NCBI RefSeq assembly: GCF_000372725.1
Contig: NW_005202428.1
Span: 1-64,000 of the forward strand
Reading direction: 5' to 3'
From: Emiliania huxleyi CCMP1516
Lineage: Eukaryota
Length of the DNA: 64,000 nt
Each line of letters opens with the position of its first letter. Position 1 is the stretch's first letter. Made by a program: the position numbers and the translations under genes. The notes under the pieces were generated by a model that had not been told where the DNA came from, did no database searches, and saw nothing but the letters and a program-made list of their open reading frames with translations. This document shows positions 2,619 through 39,190 of the stretch, in pieces.

Positions 2619-4281
2619 GATGTATCTTATTCGGACCCCCCCCTCCGCGCCTCGTGTTTTTCGTGCCAAACCAGCGCGATCTCGGCGGGGCGTCAGCGCC
2701 TCTCGGAGGGGCATCATGCGCTCCCGGGGCCGCCCGACGGCGCGGGCCTCTTGCCGATGGACCCAGCCGAGGTGCCCAACCAGTTGGAGCGCGCCGACGC
2801 GCTGCGCGCGACCACCAGCCAGCTTTCCGGCCGGGCCGAGAACGGTGTGTCGAGAAAGTAGACACTCAAAGTAGCAGCCGCTTTTTTTGCCTCTTTTTGA
2901 GCGCGGCTGCTGCACACCCTGCCCACCAGTGATACTAGAAGCACCAGATTTACCCCGTCGCGAGCTTGACCGCGACCCCGATGACCGCCCACAGGTGGCT
3001 GATCGCGGCGCCACTCATCGCTGCTTTTCGGCGCCTGGCTCTCAGAGGGCCCCTGCGGCTCTCGCTCGTCGCGCGACCGCCGCCGACATCATGTGCTTGG
3101 TCGTCCCCGCCGGCACGGAGCTGCGCCACGTCGAATTGTTCGGCGGCTCGACCGCCGGCGCGCCCACCCTCGCCTCCTGCGCGCCTCACACCCAGAATTC
3201 TCCTCGCGCGCGGCCGACAAAGTAGGCACACGACCACCTCCCTCCCACTCACCCCCCCCACGATGCACAGCCCGTCCACTCTCGCCGGCAAGGCGCACGG
3301 AACGCCCAATTTGGGCTGGAAATGCCGCCGCCACGGGTTGGTGGCGCCCTCGGCAGCGGGGCAGCGCCACGCCGCGCAAACTTGCGCGACAAACTTGCGA
3401 CCTCTGTCCCTCGTATTCACCCCAGATTTTGCCCTATCCAGGCTCACCCGGTACCGCGAGCGGCGAGCCGCGCCAAGTTTGCTCCATTTCCGACAAGTTC
3501 ATCCCGCCCGAACGCCGATCTTCGGCCGCCTGGAGGCCCAGGACGGGGCTCGGGACCGGCCAGGTGTGGATTCTCCTCGGCGCTGCGGTGTATCTGCGCG
3601 CCCATGGCGCGTTCAGGGGTGCGTCTGAGGCGTGTAGACTGCGGGGCGCCGCGATAGCGCGGCGCCGACGATTGTGTCAGCTCACTGTCACACCGTCGAC
3701 ACGGTCACAGTGTGTGTGCAGTGCGTCCACTCCGGCGACCGTGACGCCGTCGGTTCTCGCCTATACCGGCCAGTGTGGAGCTATCAGTGTGGTTGCGTGT
3801 TGTACTAGTGATGCTGCACTAGGCGGCCCGTTTTTAGCAAAAACCAGATACCAAATCGCGTGTGGTCGTCGAAAAACCGCATCTTCGCCCGTCTGGGACC
3901 TCGTCGTACGGGCTACGGCTCCAAAAACCGCTCCTTGACGACGACTACGCGGCCCGGCGGTCGATCTGCGCCTGCTCAGCGGTGGAGGGGATGTGGGCGG
4001 TACGTGCGTACCGCGTGGTGTTGCGACGGTTTGACGATTGCGACTCCCAGCGTCGACTTTTCGACCCCACGGAGCCTCTGCTGCTCCGGGGGGGGGGGGT
4101 CTGCAGACCACCCGGCCGAACTTCAGAGTGGCGGTGCTCCTCAAATACCGCTCAAACGCCCACGATGTTGTGGAGGGGACATATGCTGATGATCCTGGCC
4201 CGATTGGTTCGCTCAGAAAGCTTCTGGGCGGTCGCTAAGGTTCGCTCCCCGCACACGGGCCCCGGAATAAGTTACATCGCA
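2619..4281. mobile_element. Non-autonomous TIR DNA transposon (TA TSD), copy 1 of a 1.6-kb family
   Basis: 2636-4266 is largely the reverse complement of 28805-30428. Imperfect TIR TGATGTATCTTATTCGG / CCGGAATAAGTTACATCGCA, flanked by TA at 2617-2618 and 4282-4283. Confidence 0.75.
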
Positions 4282-9679: not shown

Positions 9680-10948
9680 CACACACACACACACACACAC
9701 ACATACACACACACCGGGCCTTGCACGTTCAATGCCGTGGGGCTCCTGTCGTCTAGACGTGGAGTCCCCATATCTCCCCACATCTCCCCGTACCTCCCCG
9801 TACCTCCCCGTACCTCCCCGTATCTCCCCGGACCTCCCCATATCTCCCCGTACCTCCCCGTACCTCCCTGTATCTCCCCGTACCTCCCCATACCTCCCCG
9901 TATCTCCCCGGACTCCCCGTACCTCCCCGTATCTCCCCGTACCTCCCCGTATCTCCCCATACCTCCCCACATCTCCCCGTACCTCCCCGTATCTCCCCAC
10001 ATCTCCCCGTACCTCCCCGTACCTCCCCGTATCTCCCCGGACCTCCCCATACCTCCCCGTACCTCCCCGTACCTCCCCGTACCTCCCCGTATCTCCCCGT
10101 ATCTCCCCGTATCTCCCCGTATCTCCCCATACCTCCCCGTAGGCGGGCGAGATACAGGCGGCCGGCCGGAACAACTACCAGACGCTCGAAAAGGAGTCAA
10201 ACATCGGCCCGGTCGTCTTTGAGACCAGGGAGATGCGCCGAGATTGCCCGAGATGCGCCGAGATTGCCCGAGATGCGCCGAGACTGCCCGAGAGTGCTGC
10301 GCGCGCTGCCTCCGCGCCGCCTCTCCCCGCCTTCCCCCCGCCGCCCAGCCGCCGCCTCTCACCGCCTCTCTCTGTCTCCGGGCGCAGGCGCTTCCGAAGG
10401 AGACGCCGATTGATTTGGGAGGGCGGCCGATGGTGCGCGGCTAGACGATCCGAGAGGAGCCGAGAGGGGCCGAGGGGAGAGGAGGGGAGGGGAGAGGCGG
10501 GGAGAGGAGCCGAGAGGAGCCGAGAGGGGCTGAGGGGAGAGGAGGGGGGCCGAGAGGAGCCGAGAGGAGCCGAGAGGGGCCGAGGGGGGAGGAGGGGAGA
10601 GGAGGGGAGAGGAGGGGAGAGGAGGGGAGCCGAGAGGGGCCGAGGGGGGCCGAGAGGAGCCGAGAGGAGCCGAGAGGAGACGAGGGGCAGCCGAGGGTGA
10701 GGGTAGCCGAAAGGAGCCGAGGGGAGCCGCTGGGTCCCAGGAAGGCGAATGCGATGACGGCCTCTAGCGCGTGCTCACGCAATAGGTAGTAGGCAGCCTT
10801 AGTGTCCAAGACCTGCCCCCCCCCCTCTCCACGCCCCATCCCACCCTAGCACCACACCCCTAGGTGGCGTCCGCGACGGAGGGAAAGAAGAACACCGTCA
10901 TCCGCGACGAGGTGGAGGTGGCGGCGGCCAAGAAGGGAGAGGAGTAGG
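6757..10948 (+). CDS. Coactosin-like ADF-H actin-binding protein with C-terminal extension (about 11 small exons)
   Basis: Exons read MGSVDVSD...YAILKYDGK / AKLILQKTGSGSMDEM / ELDDGEVQYVLLRV..DQESK / VKFVFITWVG / GGMAKGRVASHK / DIQADDKE / DDISEEVIREKLKK / ASGANYDLGSN / ...NIGPVVFET / ALPKETPIDLGGRPM / VASATEGKKN...KKGEE*. KFVFITWVG and ASGANYD are typical of coactosin. Confidence 0.85.
9765..10140. repeat. Intronic 10-bp satellite (AYCTCCCCRT)n; related arrays at 341-490, 8115-8300, 8810-8845, 41795-41945
   Basis: Directly visible tandem decamers. Confidence 0.95.
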
Positions 10949-11294
10949 GCCGTCCCCCCCTCCCACCGGGCGGAAGAGCGAGGAGTAGGCCTCCCCCTCC
11001 CCCTACCGTGCACAGACGTCCCATGGGCAGCCTCGTGCTGTGACTCGCGCGCCCTGGTGCCGACCTCCCCCCCCCCCCCCTCCCCCGGCACGTATAGCCG
11101 CCGGGGCGCCGTCCCCGTTGCGCCCTGCAGCTGTGTCGCACGGGTCGGCGGGGCAGCTCGTTCCATTTCCTCTCTCTACGCCCCCAGTGCATACCCTTTA
11201 GCGCGAGAGAGCCCCGGGGACGGAGCCCGGAAGTGTTTATTCGCGTTTTCGTGGATGCGAGAGACGGGTACGGTACTGGATAACGTACGGCTCT

Positions 11295-11510
11295 ACGACT
11301 TGGAGCACTTGCTTGGAGTGCAGTCCTCAGCCTCACATCCAGGGGGCCGGGGAGCTAAGAAGCGCACCCAGCGGGCCGGATGATCGGGATCGGGTTGCGG
11401 GCTAGGCCTAGGGAGCCCTAGAGCCCTGGGGGGTGTGCGCGTTCGCAGGGAAAGGGCCTTCCAAAGGGCCGTAAAATAAACACGGGGGTTGGTCGTTCCG
11501 TGTACCGGGT
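11295..11510. repeat. Dispersed repeat; inverted copy at about 39785-39955
   Basis: Shared CCTCACATCCAGGG..GCCGGGGAGCTAAGAAGCGCACCCAGCGGGCCGGATGATCGG...CGTTCGCAGGG.AAGGGCC. Both copies end an ORF with ...GRGAKKRTQRAG*. Confidence 0.85.
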
Positions 11511-11777
11511 CTCTCCCCTTAACTGCAGATCTGCAGAACGCCCCCTCGGCTACTCGGAGCTAACGGACACGCAACACTGTACTCCCCGCACGTACACAGC
11601 TACGCCTCGTCGTAGAGGGTCCGCAGCGTCCTAATCTAAAATCTGAGGATTCAGGATTGAGGCATCGCTTCAGTGAGGCCAAAGTGAGTTTATGGATGTG
11701 TGAGAACGGTACGGGACCGTGCGAAATCGGAACGCATGCTTGCACGTTACCGGTCGGCGATCGCATCGTGCCACCAG

Positions 11778-13120
11778 CTACGCCTGGCACGATGTAGGTA
11801 CGACAGCATGCGCGCAAAGCACCAGGGCAGCGTCGAGCGTCGTATTGTCAATTTCGACTGGCTGTGCCCGAAGCGCGGAACGCACACGAGCTTGGCAGAA
11901 TTTCTGAGCACGACTTCCATCATTCATCTCGCCCAAGTGATCACATTTACTGTAGTTGGTGGTGACCCACCCAGACTGCAGCGCATGTGGCGAGCCCACG
12001 CTAGCGTGCACGTCCCACACGCGCTGGCCCATCACCTGAACGTGACGCTGCGGGCTGAAGGGCAGCACGTAGCACGAGGTGTAGTAGCCGCGGGGGAAGA
12101 TCTCGACAAGGCACGGAAGCGGTTGCTGGGTCATAAGAAAGCGGTTGTTGAGCTGTGCGCCGTGCGGCGTGACGTACGCGTATGCAGGCAGACTCCACTG
12201 CTGCGCAGTATGGCATGTGTCATTGGTGCTCACCTGATCACGGAGGAGAGGCCAGCGTACCGCGCCGCGGCTGATCAGCTGACGCGGTGGGCTGCGATCC
12301 AGCAACACGACGCGCCGCTCGCTCGCTTGCCTCTCCTCGGGAGAATCAGCGTGACCGTTCACGGCAATGCGATGGGTGGGCGCCTGGTGAATGACCTGAT
12401 CGGCTGCTCTCGCGTCGGAGCTGCCCCGTGGCGCCTCCCACCACAAACTAGACGGTGATGCCCGGCCGTAATGCGTAGAGATGTTGCGGCACTCGTGTTG
12501 CATTTTGTGCCACACCGCGCTCGTCGCTCCTGGCCACGAGAGGAACAGCTTGGAGTCGTCCCCCCACGGCGAAATGGTCCAATTGTCTAGTCGCAGCTCG
12601 GTACAGCCCGGGCAGCCACCCTTCGGTAGCGGTCTCACGCCGTGCTCGTCAAGTGCGCTCAGGAGTGCTTGGCCCATTGGACCAACGACCTTCCACGGCC
12701 AGCTCTCACCCCTATAGACGCCTAGCCGAAGCTTGTGCGCGACGAAGGCGTATTCAAGCAGCCACCATAAGCGCATCGCGTCGTGATATGGGTGGAAGTC
12801 TTGGCGCCTCGGACTTCCATTGAGCGGAAAGATCACAACACCGCCACTTCCATTGAGCCCACGGCGCACGTCGTGGGCGCATCATGTCGTATTCATGCAC
12901 TTCGTGAAGCTGGACGCAATGCAGAGAGGAGGTATGCCTGCTGCTTGGATGAGACCACGAAGGATATCGCCGGACATGTGTGTCGCGTCGTCTATGGAGG
13001 CTATGACTAGCTGGCTCGGGGGCGCGGGCGTGGCGCCCGCACTCCTCCTTCTCTTTGTGGTCCTCGTCTCTTTTCTCTTTTCTGTGCTAGGGGTGAGCAT
13101 CCCGCGTTTAACGAGCATGT
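11778..13120 (-). pseudogene. GT61-like glycosyltransferase, intronless, in-frame TGA at 12882-12884
   Basis: VTPHGAQLNN...LVEIFP resembles the GT61 HGA(Q/G)L-N / VE-FP motif. ORFs 12882..13235 and 11778..12869 are in the same frame, separated by one stop. Confidence 0.55.
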
Positions 13121-13448
13121 ATGCAGGCGACAATAGCCGGACACGGGAAGGGGGGCGGGGGGGGGAGCCGATGCCGTTGGCGCCGCTGGCGGTGGCGTAA
13201 GCCGATGCCGCGGGACTAGCCGGTGGCGTGGGCAAACCCCCTCCTCACTGAGAGTGCGACACAAAGACTCACATTCAGACAGGACACGGGAGGTTCACTG
13301 AGAGTGCGACACAAGACTCACATTCAAGCGGGAGGGGGGGGGGGGGGAGCCGATGCCGGTGGCGTTGGCGCCGATGGCGGTGGCGCAAGCCGATGCCGCT
13401 GGACTAGCCGGTGGCGTGGGCGAGCCCCCCTCTTCACTGAGAGCGCGT

Positions 13449-15478
13449 CTAGTGGTGCAGTGCCATGGCGTCGTCCACCCGCTGCAGGTTGCGGCGGGTG
13501 ATCACCTTGGTGAGGTGGCGGCGCGCGCCCAAGCACTCCTGCGTGCGTGCCTGCACCGCCGGCGAGTCGAAGTTGGCGATGGACGAGTTGGCGGCGCGGA
13601 GGTTCTGCCGCACGGCGGCCGCGAGCTCCTGAAGGTTGGCCGGCACGGCCTCGAGCTGCAGCACGGCGAGGGCGCCGTTGGTGGCCTCGTCCACCTCATC
13701 CGGCTCGCCGGCGGACTCCTGCTCGGAGCATAGAGGGAGGCTGAGAGGGCGGGGGGGGCAGGGGGGGGGAAGGGCATGCGAGTGCACACCTGTGAAGAGA
13801 TGATGGACGCGGTGGCCTCGGTTGACTGCGAGGTCTCCAGGTCGGCCGGCGCGTCCCACAGGGTGAGGAGTCCGGTGCGGTTGGCGCCGTCCTCGAGGTG
13901 TACCATGAGATGCAGCCTGTCCTCCGCCCGCGAGAGGGCGACATTGAAGATGCATCGCTCCTCGTCCGCCTCCCACGACCGCCACGGGTCGTCCTTGAGC
14001 CTGAGCCGGTCGGGCAGCGGCAGGTGGTCGGGCTGGAAGATGCATACGCGAGTCGCCTGCCGGCCCTTGTACCCGTGGATCGTGGAGACGACGAGCGTGT
14101 CCCCAGCGGCGGCGTCTTCGGTGTACACCTTCTCCAGCCACGCCGAGTACGCGGTCCGCGAGTCGAGCGCGTCGATGTCCCCCGCCGACGCCAGCTTGGA
14201 CCAAGCAGTAATCGATGCCTGCAGGGCGAGGGTGGTGTCGTGGCGCTCGTTCTGCGACGCCGGAGCGGAGCTGTCGAGGCGCAGGTTGAGCCGCGTGAGG
14301 ACGGACGACATGGGCCCCTCGAGCTCACCGAGCAGCTTGAGGACATTGTCGCGGGTGGACTTGCGGCCGACCATCTTGACGTGAATGTAGCCCTTGGAGA
14401 GCAGCACGTTGTAGATCTCGAAGACGGTGGCGGCCATGCGCGTGAGCAGGGCGGTCCTCTCCCCCGCGACGATCGGGTGGGAGTGGAAGGTGACATTCTC
14501 GCGGTACTCGCCGTCGACGTCGCGAATCTGCACGATCGTGTCGGTGGAGCCGGTGGCGGCGAGAGCCGGCTGCGTCGCCTCGATGACGCTGCGGGCGCTG
14601 CGGTAGTTGAGCATGTGGGTGTACTGCTCGCGGCCGTGCAGCATCTGCTCGAGCGTCGCCTGTGGCGAGCATGACGTGTACAGTGTCAGGAGAGGGGGGG
14701 GGGGGGGGCGTGGAAGGGGGGATGCGGGGGGAGGGTTAGGCGAGGCGGGCGCGAGGCGGGAGGGGTGACGGCAGGGCGCCTTATCGCCGCCCATCCAGTA
14801 GTACATCGACTGCGCCGGGTCACCCACCATCAAAAGGTTGGCGCGCCGGCGGACGAGTTGCAGTATGAAGAGGTAGAGGATCCGGGTCACGTCCTGCATC
14901 TCGTCGACCATCACGTGCGTCCACATGCCGAGGTCGAGGTCGAGGTAGACGACAAGGTAGACGAGATCGTGCTGGTCGACGATCGGGAAGGGCACCAGCT
15001 CCCTGGTCACCTCGTTGTAGAGGTGGGTGCAGCCGTCGACGGTGAGCTGCGTGCCGATCTGGATGGAGAGGTCGAGGCAACTCGCGGCGACTTTGAGGCC
15101 GAAGTCGATGCGCCGTGACTCGTCGCCGATCTTGCGCTCGAGCTGCAGCTTCTCCGTCTGGTTGAGCTTGCCCGTCCAGGAGGACGCGAGGACCGGCGCG
15201 AGGTTGTACTCCTCGACGAGCGCGGAGAGCGTCTCGGTGTTGTGGAACGACTCCTCCTGGGGGCAGCCGATGGCCTTCTGCCGCGCGAGGTCCATCACCT
15301 TGGCGACAAACTCGCGGTACAGCTTGGTCAGCGCCTCACCGTGCTCGAAGTTGCGGAAGTAGAAGGAGACGACGAGCCGCGTCTTCTGCTTCACCACGGA
15401 CGGCTCGAACGCGGACAGGTCCCGCGGGTCCTTCCCCGCCATGATCTTGCGGTCCTTGTGCATAGCGCGGTTCCACAT
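13449..15478 (-). CDS. UvrD/Rep-type SF1A helicase, 5'-truncated (no Walker A), with introns at about 14665-14780 and 13730-13790
   Basis: Motifs VMVDEMQD (II), VGDPAQSMY (III), NYRS (IV), VSTIHGYKGRQ (V) and EERCIFNVALSRA (VI). No A/GxxGSGKT exon found upstream. Confidence 0.85.
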
Positions 15479-15715
15479 CTGCGGCGAGGGAGCCCAGAGG
15501 CGGAGGGTGCAGTGAGAGGGGCGGCGCGGCGGCAACAGGGGCGGGGGAGGGGCGGGGGGTGGCGCACGCGCGCACGCAGTCCGTCAGTTAGTCAGTCAGA
15601 GAGACACGCCTCCGCCACCGGCTAACGCCGAAGGCATCGGCGCGCCACAGCCATCGGGAGACCAACGGCATCGGCCGCCTCTGTGACCTGACTCCTGCAA
15701 TCGAATGCGTGTGTC

Positions 15716-16846
15716 GTGTTCACAGCGCCGAGTTTGATTACATTCGGATTTCATTTTGCGTCGTTCGAAGGCAGGGCAGACCGAGCGACTCGCATGCTGC
15801 TGCTGATCCAATCCGCAGCACTCTCTCATCGCTCGCAACACCACTCCCAGTCGCCGCCGCCCCTCGTTGCTCACGACGACACGCAGGTGCCGGACATGGC
15901 AGCGCTGCCCGGTGAAGGCATGAACGTCGGCGAGCTCGCCAAGAGAGAGCGCGGAGAGGCCGATGCCGGCCGTGCCATGCGCGACTCCTTGCGCGGCTCC
16001 TTGGAGGGAGAGCACGGAGAGGCCGTTGCCGGCCGTGCCAAGCGCGGGACCTTCAAAGTGCCGATGTCGGCTACCCCGTACGGCTACACCGAGAAAGATG
16101 CGGACAAGCGCAGTTTTTACTGGAGCACCTTCTCGCCCGCAACGGGGGGTTCTCACGTCTATGCCCTGCTGGCCTTTACTTTGGTCGTGCTCGTCTTCGG
16201 CTGGGCGAGCGACATCCGCCAGCGCCTGTCCCGGCTGGAGGACGATGTCTACGGTCAGGAGGATGGTCAGGAGGATGTCGACGCAGAGACCCACACGCCC
16301 ACTGCCGATGCAGAGCCCATTGCCCAGCCGCCGGCAGTGGGCATGAGGATCTCGACGGCTGCGGTCGTCGACACACCGGAGATAGCGATACACACCGTGC
16401 AGATGTTCGAAAGCATCAAGCTTCTGCTCAATCTCGACCCGCACACCTCCCCTCTCCGCACCATCCAAGAGGCCAACAGGCGGCTCAATCTGCCCGCGGC
16501 GGGCCGATTCCGCCAGCAGGCCATCGAGGTACTGCAGTTTGTGCTTACTGCAGCCACATACTATAACGCACCCAGCCAGAGTCGCGTTGGGCGCATCTCG
16601 ACCGGCGTGCTCGTGCAGAGCATCAAGCATCTGCTCGGACTCGTCACGATCAGCGGAGGGTTTGAAGCCACTATGCGATGCGCATACGAGCGGCTCAATC
16701 TCAACATTCGCCTCCCAGAGCGCAGCACCCACTTCGCGGCGAGAGTCCGCGGGCACGCCATCGTGGTGCTGGAGAGGCTCCTGGCTGATGCAATTTCACA
16801 CACCCCACAGGGAGACCATCTCGGAGCGATGGAGATCGCAGACTGA
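15716..16846 (+). CDS. Hypothetical protein with one predicted TM helix and two internal helical repeats
   Basis: 376-aa uninterrupted ORF. Hydrophobic ALLAFTLVVLVFGW; repeated units IKLLLNL...EANRRLNL and IKHLLGL...AYERLNL. Confidence 0.55.
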   Translation: MFTAPSLITFGFHFASFEGRADRATRMLLLIQSAALSHRSQHHSQSPPPLVAHDDTQVPDMAALPGEGMNVGELAKRERGEADAGRAMRDSLRGSLEGEHGEAVAGRAKRGTFKVPMSATPYGYTEKDADKRSFYWSTFSPATGGSHVYALLAFTLVVLVFGWASDIRQRLSRLEDDVYGQEDGQEDVDAETHTPTADAEPIAQPPAVGMRISTAAVVDTPEIAIHTVQMFESIKLLLNLDPHTSPLRTIQEANRRLNLPAAGRFRQQAIEVLQFVLTAATYYNAPSQSRVGRISTGVLVQSIKHLLGLVTISGGFEATMRCAYERLNLNIRLPERSTHFAARVRGHAIVVLERLLADAISHTPQGDHLGAMEIAD

Positions 16847-17222
16847 CCACGCGCGGACTCTGCGGAGAGATGTGAGTTCCGACGCAACCTCATGTGGGGA
16901 TGGATGCTGATGGCGTGTCGAGGCGCGCAGATGTGTTTCGATGTCGCATGCTATACTGCGAGATGAGATCTACCAGCAGCAGCAGCACCACCACCACCAG
17001 CATCAACAGAGACAGGCAGTGCAGGCGCAGAGGCGCTCGCAGAGCGGCGCTCAGCGCCGCGCACGCCACGCTGCGGACCGTCGGACGAGCGCACCGTACG
17101 TCGGCGGCGAGCCGCGTCGCCAGCCGTCTCGCGAGAGAGCGGCGCCGCCGCGTGCGCGCAGCAGCCGCCGCGGCAGAGGCGAGCCGCGGCGACGTCCGCA
17201 CTAACGGATAACGGCCATTGGC

Positions 17223-17260
<38 letters not shown>

Positions 17261-17342
17261 ACTCACACATACATTTTATTTTATTTTGTTTTCGCGCCTT
17301 GTCTGTATCCGCTCGACCGCCCGCGGCGCCCCTTCATTGTCA

Positions 17343-20300
17343 ATGGCGTCTCGGCACTACAGCGCGGCCGAGATTGAGGAGAAGCGGCGCATCGCGTTGA
17401 GCCGCCGGGCGGCGCTGGTGCAGCAGCCACTGCAGCCTCAGCAGTCGCCTCACCGTCCACAGCAGCAGCAGCAGCAGCAGCAGCAACCGCCGCAGCCGCT
17501 GCTGCCTCGGCCCGCAAGCGGCCCGTTGGCTGCGGCTGGCCCTCGGCCTCCGCTGCGCCCCGCGGGGCCGCCTCCAGCGCCGCAGCAGCCATTATGGCGG
17601 CCGCGGCCACCCGGGCCGCCTCAGATGCCGCAGCAGTGTCCGACGCTGCAGCTGCTCACGCCGCCGCAGCCACAGCCAGCGCCACCGCAGCCGCCGCAGC
17701 CCCAGCCGCCACGGCCATGGCTGCCGCCGTCGCAAATGCCGCGGCAGCCGTCGCCGCAGCAAGGGCAGCGGCTGCTGCCGACACGGCAGCAGCACCCGTC
17801 GCCGTTGCGGCCGCCTCCGCCGCCGCGTCCATCGCCGCTACACGCGACGCACCCGCCCGCGCGTCCGCCGGCGCCGCAGCAGCCGCACCCGTCGCCACTG
17901 CGCCCGCCTCTGCAGCCAGCGCCGGTGCAGCCATCGGGGCAGTCTTGGGGTGCGGTGCCACTGCAGCCATCGCCGCGGAACCACGGGCAGGGTGTCGGGC
18001 AGAGCGGGCCCGGCTGGAGTGTGCCGCCGAGAGCCGGCGGGGAGGGGGGCGCGCCGCGGCCGTTCGGCGTCTTGCAGGCGGCGGGCGCCTCCCCGGCCCG
18101 CCAGCAGCCTCGGGCCAAGGTCGCAACGTCTGCGAGGCCCTCCGCCGCCACCCTGCCTGCCCTGCCCGCCGCCGCCGCCGGCGAGGGGGAGGGCAGGGAG
18201 ATTGCGGAGGAGGGCGCGGCGGCGGCGGCGGCGGCGAGCGCGGCGGCGGGCAGCGCCGGCGTGGCGGGCGGCGGCGGCGTGGCGGGCGGCGCGGCGGCGG
18301 CGGCAGGCGCGGCGGCGGCGTGCGCCGCCGGGGCGTCTGGTGCGGCGGGGTCTGCGGCTGCGGCGGCAGACGTGAGCGAGGTCGAGCTGGACGTGGACCA
18401 GGAGCTCGGCGGGCTGCCCGTCCTGCGCGCCACCTTCCCGCCGCCGCTCGCCGCGGTCGCCGCGTCGGAGGCGCTGCTGGCGGTGGCGGGGGTGCGCGTG
18501 CTGCCGGGCGTCAAGGGCGGGCCTCGCAAGCTGGTCTGCCCGATGGGGAGCTACCGCGAGCTGTCGGCGGTGCTGCTCGGGGGAGGCGGCGGCCGGCGGG
18601 TGCGGTTGCGCATGGCGGCGAGCGACGTGGGGCAGCGCGCACTCGAGTACTCTGCCCCGGAGGGCGAGGCCGCTGGCCAGGCGAGGTACGAGCGGCTGCC
18701 ATCGCCCATGCGGGAGGCGCTGCTCCCTTTCCAGCGCGAGGGGGTCCGCTTCGCCCTCTCTCACGGCGGGCGGGTGCTTTTGGCGGACGAGATGGGGTTG
18801 GGAAAGAGCGTGCAGGCGCTCAGCGTCGCCCTCTGCTACCGCGACGAGTGGCCGCTGCTCGTCGTCTGCCCAAAGTCTCTCTGTGGCAACTGGCTCGCCG
18901 AGCTGCGCCGCTGGCTCCCCCTCGTTTGCAGCGCGCCGCTCGCGCCCGCCGCCGCCTCCGCCCCAGGCGGCGAAGCTGTNNNNNNNNNNNNNNNNNNNNN
19001 NNNNNNNNNNNNNNNNNNNNNNNNNNNNNNNNNNNNNNNNNNNNNNNNNNNNNNNNNNNNNNNNNNNNNNNNNNNNNNNNNNNNNNNNNNNNNNNNNNNN
19101 NNNNNNNNNNNNNNNNNNNNNNNNNNNNNNNNNNNNNNNNNNNNNNNNNNNNNNNNNNNNNNNNNNNNNNNNNNNNNNNNNNNNNNNNNNNNNNNNNNGG
19201 GCGCGTCGGGGGGGCGGCGTCAGAGCGGTGCTGTCGGATGTCGACACGTCAGAAGAGGAGGGTGCGGCGGAGGAGGAGGAGGCGGTGGCGGTGGAGGAGG
19301 AGAGGGAGGAGGAGACGGTGGGGACGGAGGTGGCCGCCGCGTGGGCGGGCGAGGGGAAGTGGGGCGGTGAGGCAGAGGCCGCGCGGGGCGCCGGCGCAGC
19401 TGGCGCGTCCGGCTGCGGCGGCGGCGGCGGCGGTTTGGGCGGCGGCGGCGGCGGCGCGCTGCCCCCGCTGCCGCGCGTCCAGCTGGTCGAGAGCGGCAAG
19501 GATTCGCTCTCGGGCGGGTGCGGTGTGGTGGTCATCTCGTACGACCTCGCGGTCCGGCGCGCGGCGGAGCTGCGCGCGGCCGGCTTCGGCGTGGCGATCG
19601 CAGACGAGAGCCACGCGCTCAAGGAGCCCGAGTCGCAGCGCTCGAAGGCGCTGCTGCCGCTGCTGGGAGGCGTGCGCAGGCTCGTCCTCGTCTCGGGCAC
19701 GCCGTCGCCCTCCCGGCCGGCGGAGATCTTCACTCAGGCGAAGCTGCTGCGGCCCGGGATCTTCGGCCGCCGGCAGGACTTCGAGCGGCGGTACGCCGCC
19801 GCACACCAGGGGCGGTTCGGCTGGGACGCTAAGGGCGCGAGCCATGTGAAGGAGCTCCACGCCGTGCTGACGCACGCGCTGATGGTGCGACGCACAAAGG
19901 CGGAGGTGCAGTCGCAGCTGCCGCCAAAGGTGCGAGAGGTGCTGCTGATCGATGCGCCCGAGGCTGCGCGCGCGTGGGCTCGAGTCGAGGCGGAGCGAGC
20001 GGCGGGCCCGGCCAAGGAGCACTCGGCGGAGATGACGCTCGCCTACATGGAGACGGGGCGCGCGAAGGCGGCGGCGGTGGCGGACCACGTCGCGAGGCTG
20101 CTTGCCGCGCCGGGGCGGCGCAAGCTGCTGCTCTTTGGCCACCACAAGGCGGTGCTCGACTTGTGGGAGGAGCGGCTGCGCGGCGTGTGCAGCCACGTGC
20201 GGATCGACGGCGAGGTGCCGCACGAGGCGCGCGACTACCGCGTGGCGACCTTCCAAGGCGACCCGGCCGTACGGCTGGCGATCCTCTCGATCCGGGTGGC

Positions 20301-20839
20301 CTCGCATGGCTTCACGCTCACCGCGGCCAGCGTCGTGGTCTTCGGAGAGCTGGCGTGGAACGCGTCCGACCTCGCGCAGGCGGAGGACCGCGCTCACCGC
20401 ATCTCGCAGCTCGCGGAGCGCGTGCAAGTCTTCTACTGCATCGCGCGCGGCTCCGTCGATGAGGTGATGTGGCGCCTCGTCGAGAAGAAGTTGCAGGTCA
20501 CCTCGTCGCTGATGTCCGGCGGCCGCGCCGCCGGGTTCGGCTCCGGTGCCTCTGGCCCCGCCGCCGCAGGCTTGCGTGGGGCGGCGCTCTCTGGCCCCGC
20601 CGCGGCGGCGGCAGCCAGCGGCGCAAAGCCTTCGTCGCCAGACATCCGCTCCTTCCTGCGGCCAGGTCCCCCCGCAGGCCAGTCTGGCGGCGGAGGCGGC
20701 GGAGGCGGCGGCGGGGTCGGCGGTGGCGGTCGCTGCGGCGGTGGCGACGGGGGCGGCTATGGAGGCTATGGAGGCTATGGAGGCTATGGAGGCTATGGAG
20801 GCGGCGGCGATTGCGGTGGAGGCGGCGGCGGCGGCGATT

Positions 20840-20900
<61 letters not shown>

Positions 20901-21174
20901 AGGGCAGGCATCAACTCGGCCTGCGGGCGCATCTGGCATCGCCGGCCTTCCGCGTCGGCCCGATGGCCCGCTCAGCCCTGGCGACGGCTCTGGCGCGTGC
21001 CTTGCCGTGCCGTCAGCAGCGGCGGGCGAGGCTTCTGTTGCCGGGCAGGCCAGCGGGGAGGCATTGCCAAGCCGCTCTGGGCGCGGCGGAGGCGGGTTGT
21101 ATGGCGGGCCTGGCTACCCCCGGTCCGCGACGGGGAAGCGGCTCAGGCCGGAGCGGCAGGACTTGTTTGAGTGA
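17343..21174 (+). CDS. SMARCAL1: SMARCAL1/HARP-like SNF2 annealing helicase (spans the N gap)
   Basis: N-terminal [14 protein letters not shown] resembles the SMARCAL1 RPA-binding motif. Also [45 protein letters not shown] and QAEDRAHRI. Confidence 0.88.
18980..19198. other. Assembly gap (Ns)
   Basis: Run of n characters. Confidence 1.
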
Positions 21175-24438: not shown

Positions 24439-25332
24439 TCAGTCCGGCTGAAGAAAGCCTACGGCGGAGAGCAGTAGCGCCAACGACACTGCGAGCGCCG
24501 CCTCGGTGCGGCCTCGCCTCGTGGCGGCGGCTGCGACGGCGCCGATAGCCAGGGCGAGGTAGAGCGCCTCGATTGCGACGGCGCGCCGCCAGATCGCCAG
24601 CATGCGGTCCGTGTGGGCGCCGCTATCGTTGGCGCGCGGGAAGGGCGTGCGCGGCACGGGCACGCCGAGAAAGGCGCACAGCGGCGCCCAACCGTCCGAG
24701 GCGCGAAAGACAAGCAACCGCTCCGGCGGCACCGCCGCGGCGACCCGCGCATTCCACGCCTCGAAGCGGGTGGCGAGCGCACGCGTGTCACGCAGCTCTC
24801 CAGACATTACGCCGCCGTCAGAGTCCTCAAAAAAGTGGGCGCGGTAGGCGCGGCCGAGCCTGCGGGCGGCCGAGCGGAAAGGCGCAAGCAGAGCCGAGCG
24901 CTCGGCGCTGTACTCGCTCCAAATGGTCGTGGCAACAGATCGCGCCCAGTCGTGCGGGTCGCGCACGGTCAGGATCACCTTGGCGTCTGGAAAGCTCGCG
25001 AGCAACCACTGGTACGCAACCGACGCGGGGAAGTCGACGCTGCAGCCGAAGCCGCTGAGGAGCCCGCGCCAGTCGGCCCGCTCCGGCTCCTCCAGCGCGC
25101 GAGCCCACGGCCGCTCGCGTACCATCTTCGCCACCGCAGCCATGCTGTGGCACGGTCCAAACCCAAGCCGCTCGAGGGCCATGCTGAGCGAGGTCGTGCC
25201 TGTGCGGCCGCAGCCCGCGCCAATGACCTGGAGCTCCGCCGGCCGCTTCCGCGGCCTGGCGCGGTGGCGACCGCTCCGGGCGGAGCTGTTCGGCAGGGCG
25301 TCGAATCTCGCAGCATGGATCTTTTGCGCCAT
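24439..25332 (-). CDS. P-loop sulfotransferase-family protein with C-terminal hydrophobic anchor
   Basis: VIGAGCGRTGTTSL..AL..LGFGPCHSM, VDFPA, PDAKVILTVRD..W..S, VPPERLLVF..DGWAPLCAFLGVPVP..PFPRAN. Confidence 0.9.
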   Translation of the reverse strand: MAQKIHAARFDALPNSSARSGRHRARPRKRPAELQVIGAGCGRTGTTSLSMALERLGFGPCHSMAAVAKMVRERPWARALEEPERADWRGLLSGFGCSVDFPASVAYQWLLASFPDAKVILTVRDPHDWARSVATTIWSEYSAERSALLAPFRSAARRLGRAYRAHFFEDSDGGVMSGELRDTRALATRFEAWNARVAAAVPPERLLVFRASDGWAPLCAFLGVPVPRTPFPRANDSGAHTDRMLAIWRRAVAIEALYLALAIGAVAAAATRRGRTEAALAVSLALLLSAVGFLQPD

Positions 25333-25491
25333 GCCGTCACCCGAAGAGCAGCTTTGAACCCGCCACTCTGACTCGACAGCGAGACGGCGAGTGGCGTCGA
25401 AAAAGTGGCTGCGCAGGCCAGTCAGTGGCAGGCCGCGCCGGCGCCCCAGCGTAGAGCCCCAGTACCCGGGTACGGAGTCGGCTCGACACTA

Positions 25492-26428
25492 CTCGCATAA
25501 TGTGGGTAAACGAAAAAAGTAGCGCGCAATTCGTCTACGTACGGCTTAGTGTGTGGTTGGGGTGGCCTCAGGCATCCCCAAGGGAGCCTCTGCGGTGCCA
25601 CATAAGCAGCTTAGTGATTGTCGAGACTTTAAGGGATTCGTTTGAAGATCTCGCAAACAAGACAGACCACTACTATGGGTCACCAGTAAACGAAAATTCG
25701 ACTTTGAGGGATAATATCTCAACAGACTGGGTGAGAGCATAGCATTATTATTGCATATTAGGCCGCATAAGGTCAGACTTGACCCCACAAGCATCCAGAA
25801 CCCGATGCTCCGGCTCGACTGTGCCGGCACACTGCCTCCTCGCGCACGCGGCTAGCAGGCCGTTGCGGCCCGTGGTGCACCAGAGAGAGAGGTCGACGCG
25901 TTGCCCCCGCTGGCGACCCCGCGCGGCTCAGGCCGGCCAGAAGGTGTGTGGTGACGGCACCGTGGCAGGAGTGCGGAGATGAGCTCGCCGAACGCGAGCA
26001 GCAGATGGCCAAAGTGTGCCAGCGCGAGAGCCTCGCGAGCGGGCGCAGAAGGAGCTCGCCGTGACACGATGCCGGGCGGTGGTGGTGCTCTGGCGACTGT
26101 GCACAGTGGGCAAAGTCAGGCTGCAACAGGGCAGCACGATGGTAGTGCCCTGCTGCAGCCTGGCCTGACATGCACAGGGCGAACAGAGACACTACTATCG
26201 TCTGGCGCTCGTCACCGAATCTGGGCGAACTTCGACCGCCGCCACAGCTGGCCACGAGCACGCAGCGACAAAATGCTGACTGTACGGAAGTTGAGGCTGG
26301 TCGAGAGGAAGAGGCTGCCGTGCGAGCCGGCAGCTGGCTGGCTCGGGCGGACTGACTCCGGCGTGTTTTTTCGGCTTCTTCTTTCATAGTAGCGTATACG
26401 CTACTTTCGTTTACCCACATTCTGCGAG
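25492..26428. mobile_element. Non-autonomous Tc1/mariner-like element (TA TSD, ~30-bp TIR), copy 1
   Basis: TA|CTCGCATAATGTGGGTAAACGAAA...TTTCGTTTACCCACATTCTGCGAG|TA. Closely similar copy at 37730-38662. Confidence 0.9.
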
Positions 26429-26757
26429 TAGCCGTGAATCACCTACAGTGGGTTAAATAACGCGACGGCCCTCAGCGGAGCTGGGAATAGGACCGCCGCA
26501 AGCGGCGTGGCGTGGAGCGGTTGAGCATCCCTCCGGGGGCCCCTCTGCGCCGGGGAGGCGTTGTTGGAGGCTAGGACGCAAGCGTCCGTCGCCCTTTTCA
26601 AACTCGGGGCCCTCTCCGCTACGCTCCGACCCGAATTTGGAGGGCCATGAAGTTTAAGGTGTTGCTGCGCAAAAGGGGTGGCGGCGCGGCGGCGCCGAAA
26701 AGAAGCACTCACTTGACAAGAGGTAAGTAAGTCATAATGTTAATGGGACACCAATCC

Positions 26758-29700
26758 TCACTCCTCACACTCCATGCACTGTAGAGAGGAATGAGCGGCC
26801 ACGGTAGGCACCACAGCTGGTACTGGCGCGTTGAGCACGGCTCGCGCGATGCGGTCCACTCGTGACTCTCCGTTCGGATCGAAGCTCGGCAAGATCACGT
26901 GCTGATGCAGCTCAGAGATGCGCTCACTGGCATGTTGACGAGAAGAGCGTTCTCCAGAGCATTGCATCCACTTTGCGTATGTAATCCCTTGCTCCGTCTC
27001 GCCGCCTGGCACTGGTCGAAAGCCAAGTACGGTCATGGTTGCGCGCCCGAGCTGCCAATGATCACAGCAGTATCCCGGCGCAGCAAAGGCCCAGGAGGGC
27101 TGGTCGGTGGTAGCAGAGCGCATCTCAAGCCCGCAGCAGCGGGTGGGGCCATACCTAGGTTGCCAGGAAGTGGAGGGCCGCAGAGGGTTCCGCCGCGCCA
27201 TCTCTTCCTGCAGGGATCGCTCGGCGTCCCTCCACATCGATGGCGGCCCCTCTGCGGCCCGACGGCAGCAATCGTGGACGTAGTTATCATAGGTGAGGTG
27301 CTCGAGGATAGCCATCTCGGGATGGTAGTGGTGCTTGCACAGTGCGCCTTGCCGCTGGTTGAGGTCGACGAGCGCCTTGAGAATGTGGTGTTTGGTCCGC
27401 CCGTCATTCGTGCAGAGGTACGGCAACGCAAAGTTTGGTGGTAGCACACACGTGTCGCAGCCGCCCAGGGGCCGGTGCCCAATCCACTGGTTTCGCTGCG
27501 GGCACCACCACGGCGTTTCGATGCTGTGGTGGCTGTTGAAAAGATAATTGTTCAAGAAGTTCGAACTTGATCCACCCGTCGAAAAGAATGCCTCACCCCA
27601 TCGGCCGTTCCAGCCATGCCAGTTGGCACGCTGTCGCTCGAGGGGCATGCCACCGACGAGGTTGAGCTCGTTGCCGAGGTACTGTGCCCGCTCTTTGTCG
27701 AATCGCCGCTCGCCGAGGCCTGCCAGCTGCATGTGGGAAATGAGGGCCAGATTGCACTCGACGTGTCGCGAGTCAGACTCCTTTGCAAAGCCAGGTGGGG
27801 CGTAGAAGACGGAACGCCACCACAGCCGGCGCCCGTGCATTTGCAACCGTGACTCCATGATGGCGAGCACGCGCCGAATCAGCAACCACGGAGGAAGTAG
27901 CCCCTCACTCCCTCGTCCACCCATACCCTCTAGCCGCCAATCTGCAAAGATTGAATTGGGTTCGAGAGTTTGATCGCAGGTCAATGCCTTTGTGTCATCC
28001 CACCGCGAGCGAAGCCAGTTCCATTCTCGAGAGAGTCCGCTTGCATCATCCTCTGCTGACGACTGCACCTGAATCTCTAGCCACCTTGACGGGTCGCCCT
28101 CGAAGACTTCAGCTTTGAGGTACGCTGGCCAGTCAAGCTTGGGGCCGTTCCACACAGCATAGAAGGGCTCTGCTTTGCCATGCTCGCCGTCCCAATCCTG
28201 GCGTGCCGCCTCCGCCTCTGCGTCGTACATGATCCCGCTGGATCTTCCTGACTCAAAGCGGCTCTTGACGTCTTCGAGATGTGGCACAGGTAGGCTGATG
28301 GGTGGCAAACGCGGCAATGAAGGCAGAGCTGCTGCGTCCCTTGCATCTGCCTCGCCACGTCCGTCGCACAAGTGGATGAGCCGGCAATCCGACGGGCTCG
28401 TGTGAGGCTCGAAAATTGGCTGCTCGCAGTGCGGGCCGTGGCACTGGAAATTGTGCAACCATTCAGGGCTGTCAACAATCATACGTGCACCGTCCTCCCC
28501 CGCCAATTTATACGCCACCCCCCAGAGTTGCGGGCACATCTGCAGCTGCTCATGTCGGCGCCGCTCAAAGCCCAATACCATCGGCTTAAAGGGAACGAGC
28601 CCATCGGCGCCCACTGCTCCCAACAGAGTTGCCGCCATTGCGCCTGCGCGTGACTCGAGGATCGAAGCCTGCGCCTCTTCGTGGGGCAACAGCGCCGTGG
28701 AAGCCGCGTTGGTGGCAGCACGACTAGCAGCAGCTGCATCACGATAGCTGTCACGGTGGCCTTGGCGATCCGTCTCCTGCTGCTGCCGTCTAGGGTACGA
28801 TACTTCCGGGCCGGTGTGCGGGGAGCGAACCTTAACGACCGCCCAGAAGCTTTCTGAGCGAACCAATCGGGCCAGGATCATCAGCATATGTCCCCTCCAC
28901 AACATCGTGGGCGTTTGAGCGGTATTTGAGGAGCACCGCGACTCTGAAGTTCGGCCGGGTGGTCTGCAGACCCCCCCCCCCGGAGCAGCAGAGGCTCCGT
29001 GGGGTCGAAAAGTCGACGCTGGGAGTCGCACTCGTCAAACCGTCGCAACACCACGCGGTACGCACATACCGCCCACATCCCCTCCACCGCTGAGAAGGCG
29101 CAGATCGACCGCCGGGCCGCGTAGCCGTCGTTAAGGAGCGGTTTTTGGAGCCGTACGAAGAGGTCCCAGACGGGCGAAGATGCGGTTTTTCGACGACCAC
29201 ACGCGATGTGGTATCTGGTTTTTGCTAAAAACGGGCCGCCTAGTGCAGCATCACTAGTACAACACGCAACCACACTGAAAGCTCCACACTAGCCGGTATA
29301 GGCGAGCGCCGACGGCGTCACGGTCGCCGGAGTGGACGCACTGCACACACACTGTGACCGCGTCGTGGGTGTGACAGTGCGCGACACAACCGTCGGCGCC
29401 GCGCTATCGCGGCGCCCCGCAGTCTACACGCCTCAGGCACACCCCTGAACGCGCCATGGGCGCGCAGATACACCGCAGCGCCGTGGAGAATCCACACCTG
29501 GCCGGTCCCGAGCCCCGTCCTGGGCCTCCAGGCGGCCGAAGATCGGCGTTCGGGCGGGATGAACTTGTCGGAAATGGAGCAAACTTGGCGCGGCTCGTCG
29601 CTCGCGGTACCGGGTGAGCCTGGATAGGGCAAAATCTGGGGTGAATACGAGGGACAGAGGTCGCAAGTTTGTCGCGCAAGTTTGCGCGGCGTGGCGCTGC

Positions 29701-37636: not shown

Positions 37637-37729
37637 GTGTAAAATTTTAGTGGAGCTGTCACTCGCCGCGCGCTGTTGTAGCCAAAGTCTGCACAGCCTT
37701 GTGGTTGAGAATTCTACAAGCCAGAACTA

Positions 37730-38662
37730 CTCGCATAATGTGGGTAAACGAAAAAAGTAGCGCGCAATTCGTCTACGTACGGCTTAGTGTGTGGTTGGGG
37801 TGGCCTCAGGCATCCCCAAGGGAGCCTCTGCGGTGCCACATAAGCAGCTGAGTGATTGTCGAGACTTTAAAGGATTCGTTTGAAGAAACGCAAACAAGAC
37901 AAACGGTACTATGGTCACCAGTAAACGAAAATTCGACTTTGAGGGATCATATCTCAAAAGGCTGGGTGAGAGCATAGCATTATTGTTGCATATTATACCA
38001 CATAAGGTCAAACTTGACCCCAGATGCATCAAGAACCCGATGCTCCGGCTCGACTGTGCCGGCACACTGCCTCCTCGCGCAAGCTGCTCGCAGGCCGTTG
38101 CGGCCCGTGGTGCACCAGAGAGAGAGGTCGACGCGTTGCCCCCGCCGGCGACCCCGCGCGGCTCAGGCCAGCCAGAAGGTGTGTGGTGACGGCACCGTGG
38201 CAGGAGTGCGGAGAAGAGCTCGCCGAACGCGAGCAGCAGATGGCCAAAGTGTGCGAGCGCGAGAGCCTCGCGAGCGGGCGCAGAAGGAGCTCGCCGTGAC
38301 ACGATGCCGGGCGGTGGTGGTGCTCTGGCGACTGTGCACAGTGGGAAAAGTCAGGCTGCAACAGGGCAGCACGATGGTAGTGCCCTGCTGCAGCCTGGCC
38401 TGACATGCACAGGGCGAACAGAGGCGGTACTATCGTCCGGCGCTCGTCACCGAATCTGGGCGAACTTCGACCGCCGCCACAGCTCACCACGAGCACGCAG
38501 CGACAAAATGTTGACTGTATGGAAGTCGAGGCTGGTCCATAGGAAGAGGCTGCCGTGCGAGCCGGCAGCTGGCTGGCTCGTCGGGACGGCCGCCGGCGTC
38601 TTTTTCGGCTTTTTCTCTGATAGTACCGTATACGGTACTTTCGTTTACCCACACTCTGCGAG
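37730..38662. mobile_element. Non-autonomous Tc1/mariner-like element, copy 2
   Basis: TA|CTCGCATAATGTGGGTAAACG...CGTTTACCCACACTCTGCGAG|TA; interior co-linear with 25492-26428. Confidence 0.9.
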
Positions 38663-38675
38663 TAGAACGCGCCTC

Positions 38676-39190
38676 TCTCGAGGTTCTCGAGGTGGATATC
38701 CTTTGGCCGCGTTGGGTAGCGAGGATTGGTGTAACCCGAGCCACGGAGGCGTGTTTTCTGGCGGCCGACCGTCAGTGCACGGAGTTGCCACTTCTCCGAC
38801 TGCCCCGGCTAGTTCCCCAGGCTCGCCGGGTTTCCCCTACGTCACCTAGGACCTAGCGCGGGTGGGTTGGAGGGGCCTCAGAAAGGCGCGCAAGCACGCC
38901 CTACGTCTTCCCCTCCTCCCCATCGGGCCGCATAAGCGGCCACGCCTCGCAGATTCGTTTTCGCGCCTGGGTCAGGCGCGCGGGGCATCCCCCGGGTCGC
39001 TCGACCAGCGATCCGAAGAGTGGCCGCTATGCGAGGGAAAGAGCGGGGCCCTCGACGCCTCAGTCCGGCCCTCCGAGGGGGGAAGGGAAGTGCGGGGTCC
39101 CCACGGGCGCCTCAGTTCGGCCCTCCCGAGGGGGGGAGGGGAGCAAAGGGGTGGGGGGATCGGGGCGGTGGGGAGGGGTCTCGGATTTCG
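38676..39190 (+). repeat. Truncated copy of the repeat element at 47059-47935 (inverted)
   Basis: TCTCGAGGTTCTCGAGGTGGATATCCTTTGGCCGCG... through ...GGGGTCTCGGATTTC matches the reverse complement of about 47435-47935. Confidence 0.9.

What the first reader, a model, noticed from the sequence alone, without database searches (positions are those of the whole stretch)
13167..15675. UvrD/Rep helicase fragment enclosed by ~62-bp inverted repeats
Seen: GCCGATGCCGTTGG...TGGC.GTGGCG..GCCGATGCC...TAGCCGGTGGCG at 13167-13228 (tandem second copy 13349-13416, just past the stop codon) has an imperfect inverted counterpart at 15613-15675. That is exactly where the missing Walker-A exon should continue. 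Known: helicase-bearing eukaryotic TEs typically carry PIF1-like (Helitron) or RecQ-like (AcademH) helicases. Inference: either a TIR element that captured or encodes an intron-containing SF1A helicase, or an inversion/deletion breakpoint that truncated the gene.
Basis: partly seen in the sequence, partly recalled or inferred. Interest (0 to 1): 0.7.

Follow-up and report, generated by a model that had tools for sequence, protein, structure and literature searches.

The report
Decapitated algal helicase gene between repeats
In this marine alga, a DNA-helicase gene that is whole and spliced in other samples has lost its first exons at a three-letter junction, likely by a real deletion, and the short inverted repeats on either side may be worn ends of a mobile element but are not shown to be.

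Summary
The inverted repeat is real: 13167-13228 and 13349-13416 against 15613-15675, 78% and 75% identical. It is not the breakpoint. The gene is a spliced UvrD-like helicase; its best database match is the Emiliania huxleyi model EMIHUDRAFT_193707. Public RNA-type contigs hold the whole transcript with the Walker A exon. Contigs of three other runs leave the window at 15538, 75 nt before the repeat and inside an intron. The repeat-bearing piece has another left neighbour in five runs. The window joins the two pieces at a 3-nt overlap, CAG. So this is most likely a 5'-deleted copy. The two left repeats lie in the 3' UTR. No transposase, target-site duplication, defined terminus or high depth was found. 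The protein belongs to a very diverse clade (20-45% identity; both source-named members are haptophytes) nearest to phage UvrD helicases. Many members carry a zinc finger and a J-domain-like tail; paralogues and stray fragments occur. A helicase-bearing mobile element is therefore not excluded (about 0.3) but is unproven.

The parts
13167..13228 (+). Repeat copy A (62 nt, imperfectly palindromic), inside the helicase 3' UTR
   Evidence: RNA?-labelled contig X5 rec 26 spans 13163-13655
13349..13416 (+). Repeat copy B, tandem twin of A (87.5%), inside the 3' UTR
13105..13448 (-). 3' UTR, about 344 nt; the end is computed from the length of contig X6 rec 23, assuming it is collinear
   Evidence: inference
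13449..13718 (-). Last exon: J-domain-like helical tail (here without HPD) and stop
13719..13789 (-). Intron, 71 nt, GT-AG
   Evidence: 71-nt skip in X5 and X10; ends read
13790..14659 (-). Exon with helicase motifs IV-VI
14660..14779 (-). Intron, 120 nt, GC-AG
   Evidence: 120-nt skip in X5; ends read
14780..15478 (-). First exon still present: motif II (DEMQD) and motif III; Walker A lies in the missing exons
15479..15538 (-). 3' remnant (60 nt, with AG acceptor) of the intron that normally precedes this exon
   Evidence: contigs of X1, X3, X4 match to 15538 and then continue in other sequence
15536..15538 (.). Junction: CAG shared by the helicase intron and the repeat-bearing piece (microhomology)
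15539..15685 (.). Repeat-bearing piece. It has another left neighbour in X1, X2, X3, X4, X5, and exists in at least two versions (9 substitutions and a 2-nt gap over ~120 nt)
15613..15675 (-). Repeat copy C, inverted against A and B; folds as a double hairpin as RNA (z -3.6)
15896..16846 (+). Divergently oriented 316-aa ORF of no known family; contiguous with copy C in X2 and X1, with depth like the helicase's in four runs

Best explanation
The window holds the 3' three exons of a spliced UvrD-like helicase gene joined, at a CAG overlap inside an intron (15536-15538), to a repeat-bearing piece; this is likely a real deletion that removed the Walker A exons and would leave a dead enzyme. Shown: the exon structure, both introns spliced, a full-length transcript with Walker A in other samples, and the two halves of the junction attached to other sequence in other samples. 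Inferred: the lost DNA (more than 1 kb, since about 1010 nt of mRNA alone are missing) lay between the two halves on one chromosome and was removed by microhomology-type repair. Also inferred: the intact protein is an ATP-driven 3'-5' single-strand DNA translocase like other SF1A helicases. The 62-nt repeats are low-copy, hairpin-prone motifs that already flanked the intact gene, two in the 3' UTR and one upstream. They are not acting as transposon termini at present.
For: Spliced contig X5 rec 28 (2672 nt) skips both introns and has 1009 nt 5' of 15479 that are not in 10500-18500. X6 rec 23 (3202 nt) joins the exon at 15478 to 30 letters that I translated by hand as FHSHGKVYI, the residues before MWNRAM in P0006, which carries AGSGKT. 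Contigs of X1, X3 and X4 leave the window at 15538; the loose end is identical in X1 and X4. In X2 (0 differing letters on the listed helicase contigs) one 1711-nt contig links another left neighbour to 15536-16966, the same right flank as the window. Depths of helicase and right flank are alike in four runs: 57.6/51.1, 7.3-9.1/8.5, 20.1/22.7, 5.7/6.0. The repeat at 11301-11567 reaches 144,572 (the tool warns that depth is no copy number). A 3-nt overlap is too short to be a likely cause of an overlap-assembly join (inference). No transposase, no TSD.
Against: No listed contig in the 7 runs laid bridges 15538 as the window does (both tables were cut), so the junction itself has no read support. 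That the other left neighbour leads on to the first exon was not seen; only 30 letters of it are visible. The window carries a version of the repeat piece that differs from the X2 version by 9 letters and 2 gaps, while the flank beyond is nearly identical; a simple deletion does not explain this. A low-copy motif in inverted orientation on both sides of one gene is unlikely to be incidental, and the protein family looks like cargo of selfish DNA.
Confidence: 0.5

Rival explanations
1. The unit is an internally deleted copy of an undescribed haptophyte mobile element that carries a phage-type UvrD helicase. The repeats are its (sub)terminal inverted repeats, and a transposase or HUH nuclease would lie in the deleted part or on another copy.
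For: The motif is confined to the two sides of this gene; 6 of the 8 GCCGATGC in the window lie in the three copies, all pointing inwards, and one more begins the other left neighbour (loose end). The inward-reading strand folds better than shuffles as RNA (z -2.0, -2.7, -3.6). The relatives form one clade (33 of 34 rows assigned to it, SH-like 99) with only 20-45% identity among the 12 long members compared. The nearest outside relatives are phage helicases. A second paralogue (about 85% DNA identity over 98 nt) is present in X1, X3, X4. A 5'-truncated relative sits beside an unrelated gene in L001. 9 of 15 listed members of the P0030 cluster lie on contigs of 5.2-6.6 kb, and 3 of 11 first-exon proteins on contigs of 7.1-7.4 kb.
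Against: Arms only 75-78% alike, with no significant extension. No TSD. Homology between versions runs on past 15685 with indels, so no terminus is seen. No transposase found. Depth is low. No compensatory change among 25 predicted pairs, and DNA folding is weak (z 0.5, -0.9, -1.8). GCCGATGC is not enriched window-wide (8 against 6.5 expected). Equal contig lengths also arise for single-copy DNA between assembly-breaking repeats (inference). The gene has at least four introns and a spliced transcript, like a host gene.
Confidence: 0.3
2. The junction at 15538 is an assembly or clone chimera; the strain has only the intact gene, and the closeness of copy C to the exon is an artefact.
For: No listed contig bridges the junction in 7 runs. 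X2, which matches the window letter for letter on its listed helicase contigs, gives another path into 15536-16966.
Against: The overlap is only 3 nt. X2's helicase contig stops at 15425 at depth 7, so it cannot show a second haplotype, and the tool notes that contigs drop rare variants. No protein of 549-2000 aa with the Walker A exon from this strain came up (weak evidence by the tool's own note).
Confidence: 0.15
3. An inversion with a breakpoint at the repeat flipped the 5' exons nearby.
For: Inverted repeats can mediate inversions (general knowledge). X1 also leaves the window at 12988.
Against: The Walker A exon and the first exon are absent from both strands of the 64 kb. The break is at 15538, outside the repeat. 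No opposite-strand joint there.
Confidence: 0.05

Closest known systems
UvrD/Rep/PcrA (SF1A) helicases, phage and bacterial short type
   Same: Pfam UvrD-helicase, AAA_19 and UvrD_C hits. Best solved matches are UvrD, PcrA and Rep (profile E 3e-26; Foldseek E 7e-18). Best viral models and Atlas clusters are tailed-phage helicases; tblastn gives ~22% identity to Pseudomonas phage helicases.
   Different: Separate clade. N-terminal CxxC..HxxC finger in 13 of 22 proteins with a Walker A, and a C-terminal HPD/HTD J-domain-like tail in 17 proteins. Introns in the Emiliania branch. The window's copy lacks Walker A.
AcademH and KolobokH DNA transposons
   Same: DNA transposons that carry a helicase (PMC10799480, passages; RecQ helicase in Academ: PMC3627910, passage).
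   Different: Their helicases are DEAD/Helicase_C (SF2) and they have a DDE transposase (the latter recalled). Here SF1A, and no transposase found.
Helitrons/Helentrons, IS91 and Replitrons (HUH transposons)
   Same: End hairpins, short (sub)terminal inverted repeats, usually no TSD, need for a helicase (bioRxiv 10.1101/2022.12.15.520654, passages).
   Different: Helitron helicase is fused to a Y2 Rep domain and is PIF1-like. No Rep/HUH domain in any of the 14 relatives scanned or in the window ORFs.
Transpovirons and Tlr1
   Same: Elements with an SF1 helicase of bacterial or phage affinity; transpovirons also have TIRs and a zinc-finger gene (PMC7031253 and PMC3671162, passages).
   Different: Transpoviron TIRs are 380-520 nt and there are 6-8 genes. 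Their helicase is described as fused to an inactivated polymerase (reference title) or, in Tlr1, to GIY-YIG. I did not align their helicases to this family.
FBH1 (eukaryotic UvrD-like helicase)
   Same: Eukaryotic SF1A helicase; weak profile and fold match (E 1.5e-9; 2.3e-14).
   Different: Ranks below bacterial UvrD and phage models. No F-box in Pfam scans.

Membership tests
UvrD/Rep (SF1A) helicase | UvrD N- and C-terminal domains with motifs II-VI | tested here: met
   motif names are recalled
UvrD/Rep (SF1A) helicase | Walker A in the window's copy | tested here: not met
   absent from the window; present in P0006 and the X6 transcript
UvrD/Rep (SF1A) helicase | ATP-dependent 3'-5' unwinding | not testable with these tools
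   needs an assay
TIR (cut-and-paste) DNA transposon | Inverted repeats at defined termini | tested here: inconclusive
   inverted repeats exist, but homology runs on beyond 15685 and no terminus is seen
TIR (cut-and-paste) DNA transposon | Target-site duplication | tested here: not met
   none of 5-12 nt within 60 nt outside the repeat ends; 2-4 nt TSDs and more distant ends not tested
TIR (cut-and-paste) DNA transposon | Transposase in the element | tested here: inconclusive
   none among 7 + 58 window ORFs scanned; the deleted part could not be read
TIR (cut-and-paste) DNA transposon | Several copies with the same ends in different flanks, or an empty site | tested here: inconclusive
   no genome held; depth like neighbours and no joint across the unit; a paralogue exists but its ends were not seen
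Helitron/Helentron | Rep (HUH) domain fused to a PIF1-like helicase | tested here: not met
   UvrD-type, no Rep domain in 14 relatives or in the window
AcademH/KolobokH | SF2 (RecQ-like) helicase | tested here: not met
   SF1A domains
Transpoviron/Tlr1/polinton-like virus | Long TIRs, several element genes, capsid, integrase or polymerase-fused helicase | tested here: not met
   62-nt repeats; no such genes in the window; no true relative in 5 viral-contig scans (the one locus L002 was a chance hit)
FBH1 | F-box plus FBH1-clade helicase | tested here: not met
   no F-box; phage and bacterial helicases rank higher; FBH1 was not placed in the tree

The most novel reading that the evidence does not exclude
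Haptophyte algae carry an undescribed family of mobile elements of roughly 6-7 kb with hairpin-forming inverted ends, built around a phage-derived UvrD helicase (zinc finger, SF1A motor, J-domain-like tail). The window holds an internally deleted copy. It would be a eukaryotic transposon with a UvrD-type motor, unlike Helitrons (PIF1) or AcademH/KolobokH (SF2).
Probability: 0.3. Interest if true: 0.75.

Novelty: new variant of a known kind. Interest (0 to 1): 0.42.

Why it matters
At the least it marks a reference-genome gene model as a beheaded copy that is also mis-spliced: the model drops 16 residues with motif III, which the 120-nt GC-AG intron keeps. It also points to an uncharacterised, very diverse clade of phage-type UvrD helicases with a zinc finger and a J-like tail; its two source-named members are haptophytes. 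I found no paper on it in the eight searches made (result listings read). If the family rides on a mobile element, it adds a new helicase type to eukaryotic transposons and could help explain the strain-variable gene content of this alga. That is directly testable on existing chromosome-level assemblies.

Tried and rejected
Whole-genome BLAST: no genome held.
A terminus at 15685 starting CACAG (CACTA/Transib-like; names recalled): rejected, because the other version continues homologously with indels.
A longer decayed inverted repeat: not above shuffles.
A Harbinger/ISL2EU-like transposase piece in the N-terminus of P0006 (a resemblance from memory): Pfam shows only helicase-type hits and an AMIN-like match at E 0.047; rejected.
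Fused or longer forms: only P0002 among proteins of 549-2000 aa (weak by the tool's note).
DNA context of relatives: the metagenome scan gave 1 locus from 169 pattern matches. Five viral scans and two GTDB scans gave no true relative; L002 is a chance hit.
Rfam: 0 hits in 11000-17300.
Conserved RNA structure: 0 of 25 pairs compensatory among 3 copies; the mRNA-sense strand of A and B folds no better than shuffles.
Neighbour ORF 15896-16846: no Pfam hit under E 0.1 and no Atlas hit.
First-exon proteins against the window at loose settings: only noise; that output was cut.
The mixture-model tree did not finish; FastTree was used. 34 family rows and 19 outside rows were picked from the 103 hits and their cluster members; three proteins were trimmed where they leave frame. 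One family-labelled row (P0116) grouped outside.
The VIA fold search was not obtained.
The AcademH paper was not held.
Earlier findings of the scan: nothing.

Full report
Observation. BLASTN within the window gives A against C 78.5% over 65 columns (E 4.9e-8), B against C 74.7% over 75, and A against B 87.5% over 88, with no fourth copy. Shuffles do not reach these scores (0 of 300 each), but the match does not extend beyond the core. Inverted hits of this strength are not rare in this window: 53 of 1480 tiles have one, mostly satellite or GC-rich repeats. No TSD of 5-12 nt lies within 60 nt of the ends.

The gene. The minus strand encodes a UvrD-like helicase. Its best match, 100% identical in the best local alignment, is EMIHUDRAFT_193707 of Emiliania huxleyi CCMP1516. 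The exons are 15478-14780, 14659-13790 and 13718-13449, with a 120-nt GC-AG and a 71-nt GT-AG intron; together they give an open frame of 612 aa that keeps motif III. An RNA?-labelled contig skips exactly 120 and 71 nt there, and a polyA metatranscriptome contig shows the 71-nt skip. The database model drops 16 residues with motif III. Walker A is missing from the window on both strands.

The whole gene exists elsewhere. P0006, a JGI protein 97% identical over the shared part, has AGSGKT and runs without a break into MWNRAM. Contig X5 rec 28 has 1009 nt, and X6 rec 23 has 1018 nt, 5' of the exon; the X6 loose end reads, by my hand translation, as the P0006 residues just before it. Both runs come from one sample and their RNA status is a guess by the tool, but spliced joints argue for RNA. 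Eleven metagenome proteins carry the first exon. The X6 contig leaves about 344 nt of 3' UTR, which would cover copies B and A; X5 rec 26 spans 13163-13655.

The junction. Contigs of X1, X3 and X4 follow the intron to 15538 and then go on in other sequence, identical in X1 and X4. The piece from 15536 has another left neighbour in X1, X3, X4, X2 and X5. The two halves share CAG at 15536-15538. In X2 one contig joins that other neighbour to 15536-16966, the window's own right flank. No listed contig of the 7 runs laid (of 15 found) bridges the junction; 3619 pieces and 6 were not shown. The simplest reading is a deletion of more than 1 kb that removed the first exons; a chimera remains possible. 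Unexplained: the window's version of 15539-15630 differs from the X2 version by 9 letters and a 2-nt gap, while both versions occur in X1.

Copy number. Depth of the helicase contigs equals that of the right flank in four runs. It is up to about three to four times that of the neighbouring genes in X1 (52-72 against 18-30), against 144,572 for the repeat at 11301-11567. The tool states that depth is no copy number; I take it only as a sign against a high-copy element. A paralogue at about 85% DNA identity is present in X1, X3 and X4; its loose ends read as P0156/P0025 (hand translation).

The family. phmmer found 103 proteins at E up to 0.001. The long ones share 20-45% identity, and 33 of the 34 rows I assigned to the family form one branch (SH-like 99) apart from 19 bacterial- or phage-type sequences (FastTree, midpoint root). 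The only source-named members are from E. huxleyi and Chrysochromulina tobinii; the taxonomy of the rest is unknown. Thirteen of 22 proteins with Walker A have a CxxC..HxxC finger before it, and 17 end in an HPD/HTD J-domain-like tail (DnaJ hits of E 0.008-0.012 are below cut-off). The Emiliania protein keeps the helical tail without HPD, and its first exon shows no clear finger. A model of P0027 (pLDDT 78.7) matches UvrD, PcrA and Rep and, better, tailed-phage helicases; the Atlas and tblastn agree. A 5'-truncated relative lies next to an unrelated gene in L001, without the repeat.

How it most likely works. The intact gene is transcribed and spliced and would give an SF1A motor that moves 3'-5' on single-stranded DNA (inferred from the family). 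The window's allele lost the exons with the P-loop through a microhomology join and would be inactive, even though an ATG opens the remaining exon. The repeats flank the gene but were not the substrate of the break. Whether they are worn ends of a selfish element is open. For it: their confinement to both sides of this gene, hairpin folding as RNA, and a diverse, phage-related, fragment-strewn family. Against it: low identity, no termini, no TSD, no transposase, no covariation, low depth.

Literature. I read passages (term searches) of PMC11417382, PMC3627910, PMC12480563, PMC10799480, PMC7031253, PMC3671162, bioRxiv 10.1101/2024.05.26.595999 and 10.1101/2022.12.15.520654, and the listings of eight searches. 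None describes a UvrD-bearing haptophyte element. PMC11417382 mentions a UvrD_C_2 domain only as part of some RepHel ORFs. No supplements were read; Repbase and the AcademH paper were not available and may bear on the novelty claim.

Verdict. Real but modest: a truncated allele of an expressed gene from an uncharacterised helicase clade, with a 30% chance that it marks a new kind of mobile element. Interest 0.42.

Noticed in passing
window 11301-11717, second copy 39950-39817: Very high-depth dispersed repeat (bin depth 144,572 in X1, 23,745 in X2; many loose ends at 11312, 11344, 11402-11405); an 87% inverted copy of 147 nt lies 28 kb away. Looks like a MITE- or SINE-like element.
   Followed up: partly
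window 11688-12988: Segment with long ORFs of no Pfam family on both strands. In X1 its contig leaves the window at 12988 for 1148 nt; in X2 part of it has about three times the local depth. Possibly another rearranged or multi-copy piece.
   Followed up: partly
window 14780-14827: The database gene model (P0002) omits 16 residues with helicase motif III; the 120-nt GC-AG intron seen in contig X5 keeps them.
   Followed up: yes
window 17345-21174 (+): SNF2-family helicase gene (PF00176, PF00271) with an assembly gap of 219 N at 18980-19198; probably an ordinary host gene.
   Followed up: no
window 2636-4267 / 30426-28804; 25488-26431 / 37726-38665; 38676-39189 / 47935-47436: Three further dispersed repeats of 0.5-1.6 kb at 90-94% identity. 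The 944-nt pair has ~36-nt inverted ends (89%), MITE-like.
   Followed up: no
window 26758-29034 (-): 758-aa open frame without a Pfam match.
   Followed up: no
window 15629-15802 and 15894: In X3 a 2058-nt contig lacks most of 15629-15829 and has a 21-nt insertion at 15894: strain variation in the ORF region next to copy C.
   Followed up: no
L001 1-850 and 1575-2590: A 5'-truncated, frameshifted helicase relative sits about 700 nt downstream of a gene that reads like a prolyl 4-hydroxylase (my recall, not searched).
   Followed up: partly
window 24439-25488 (-), 61867-63927 (+), 50913-51641: Sulfotransferase and OPT oligopeptide transporter genes, and an 80-nt tandem array.
   Followed up: no
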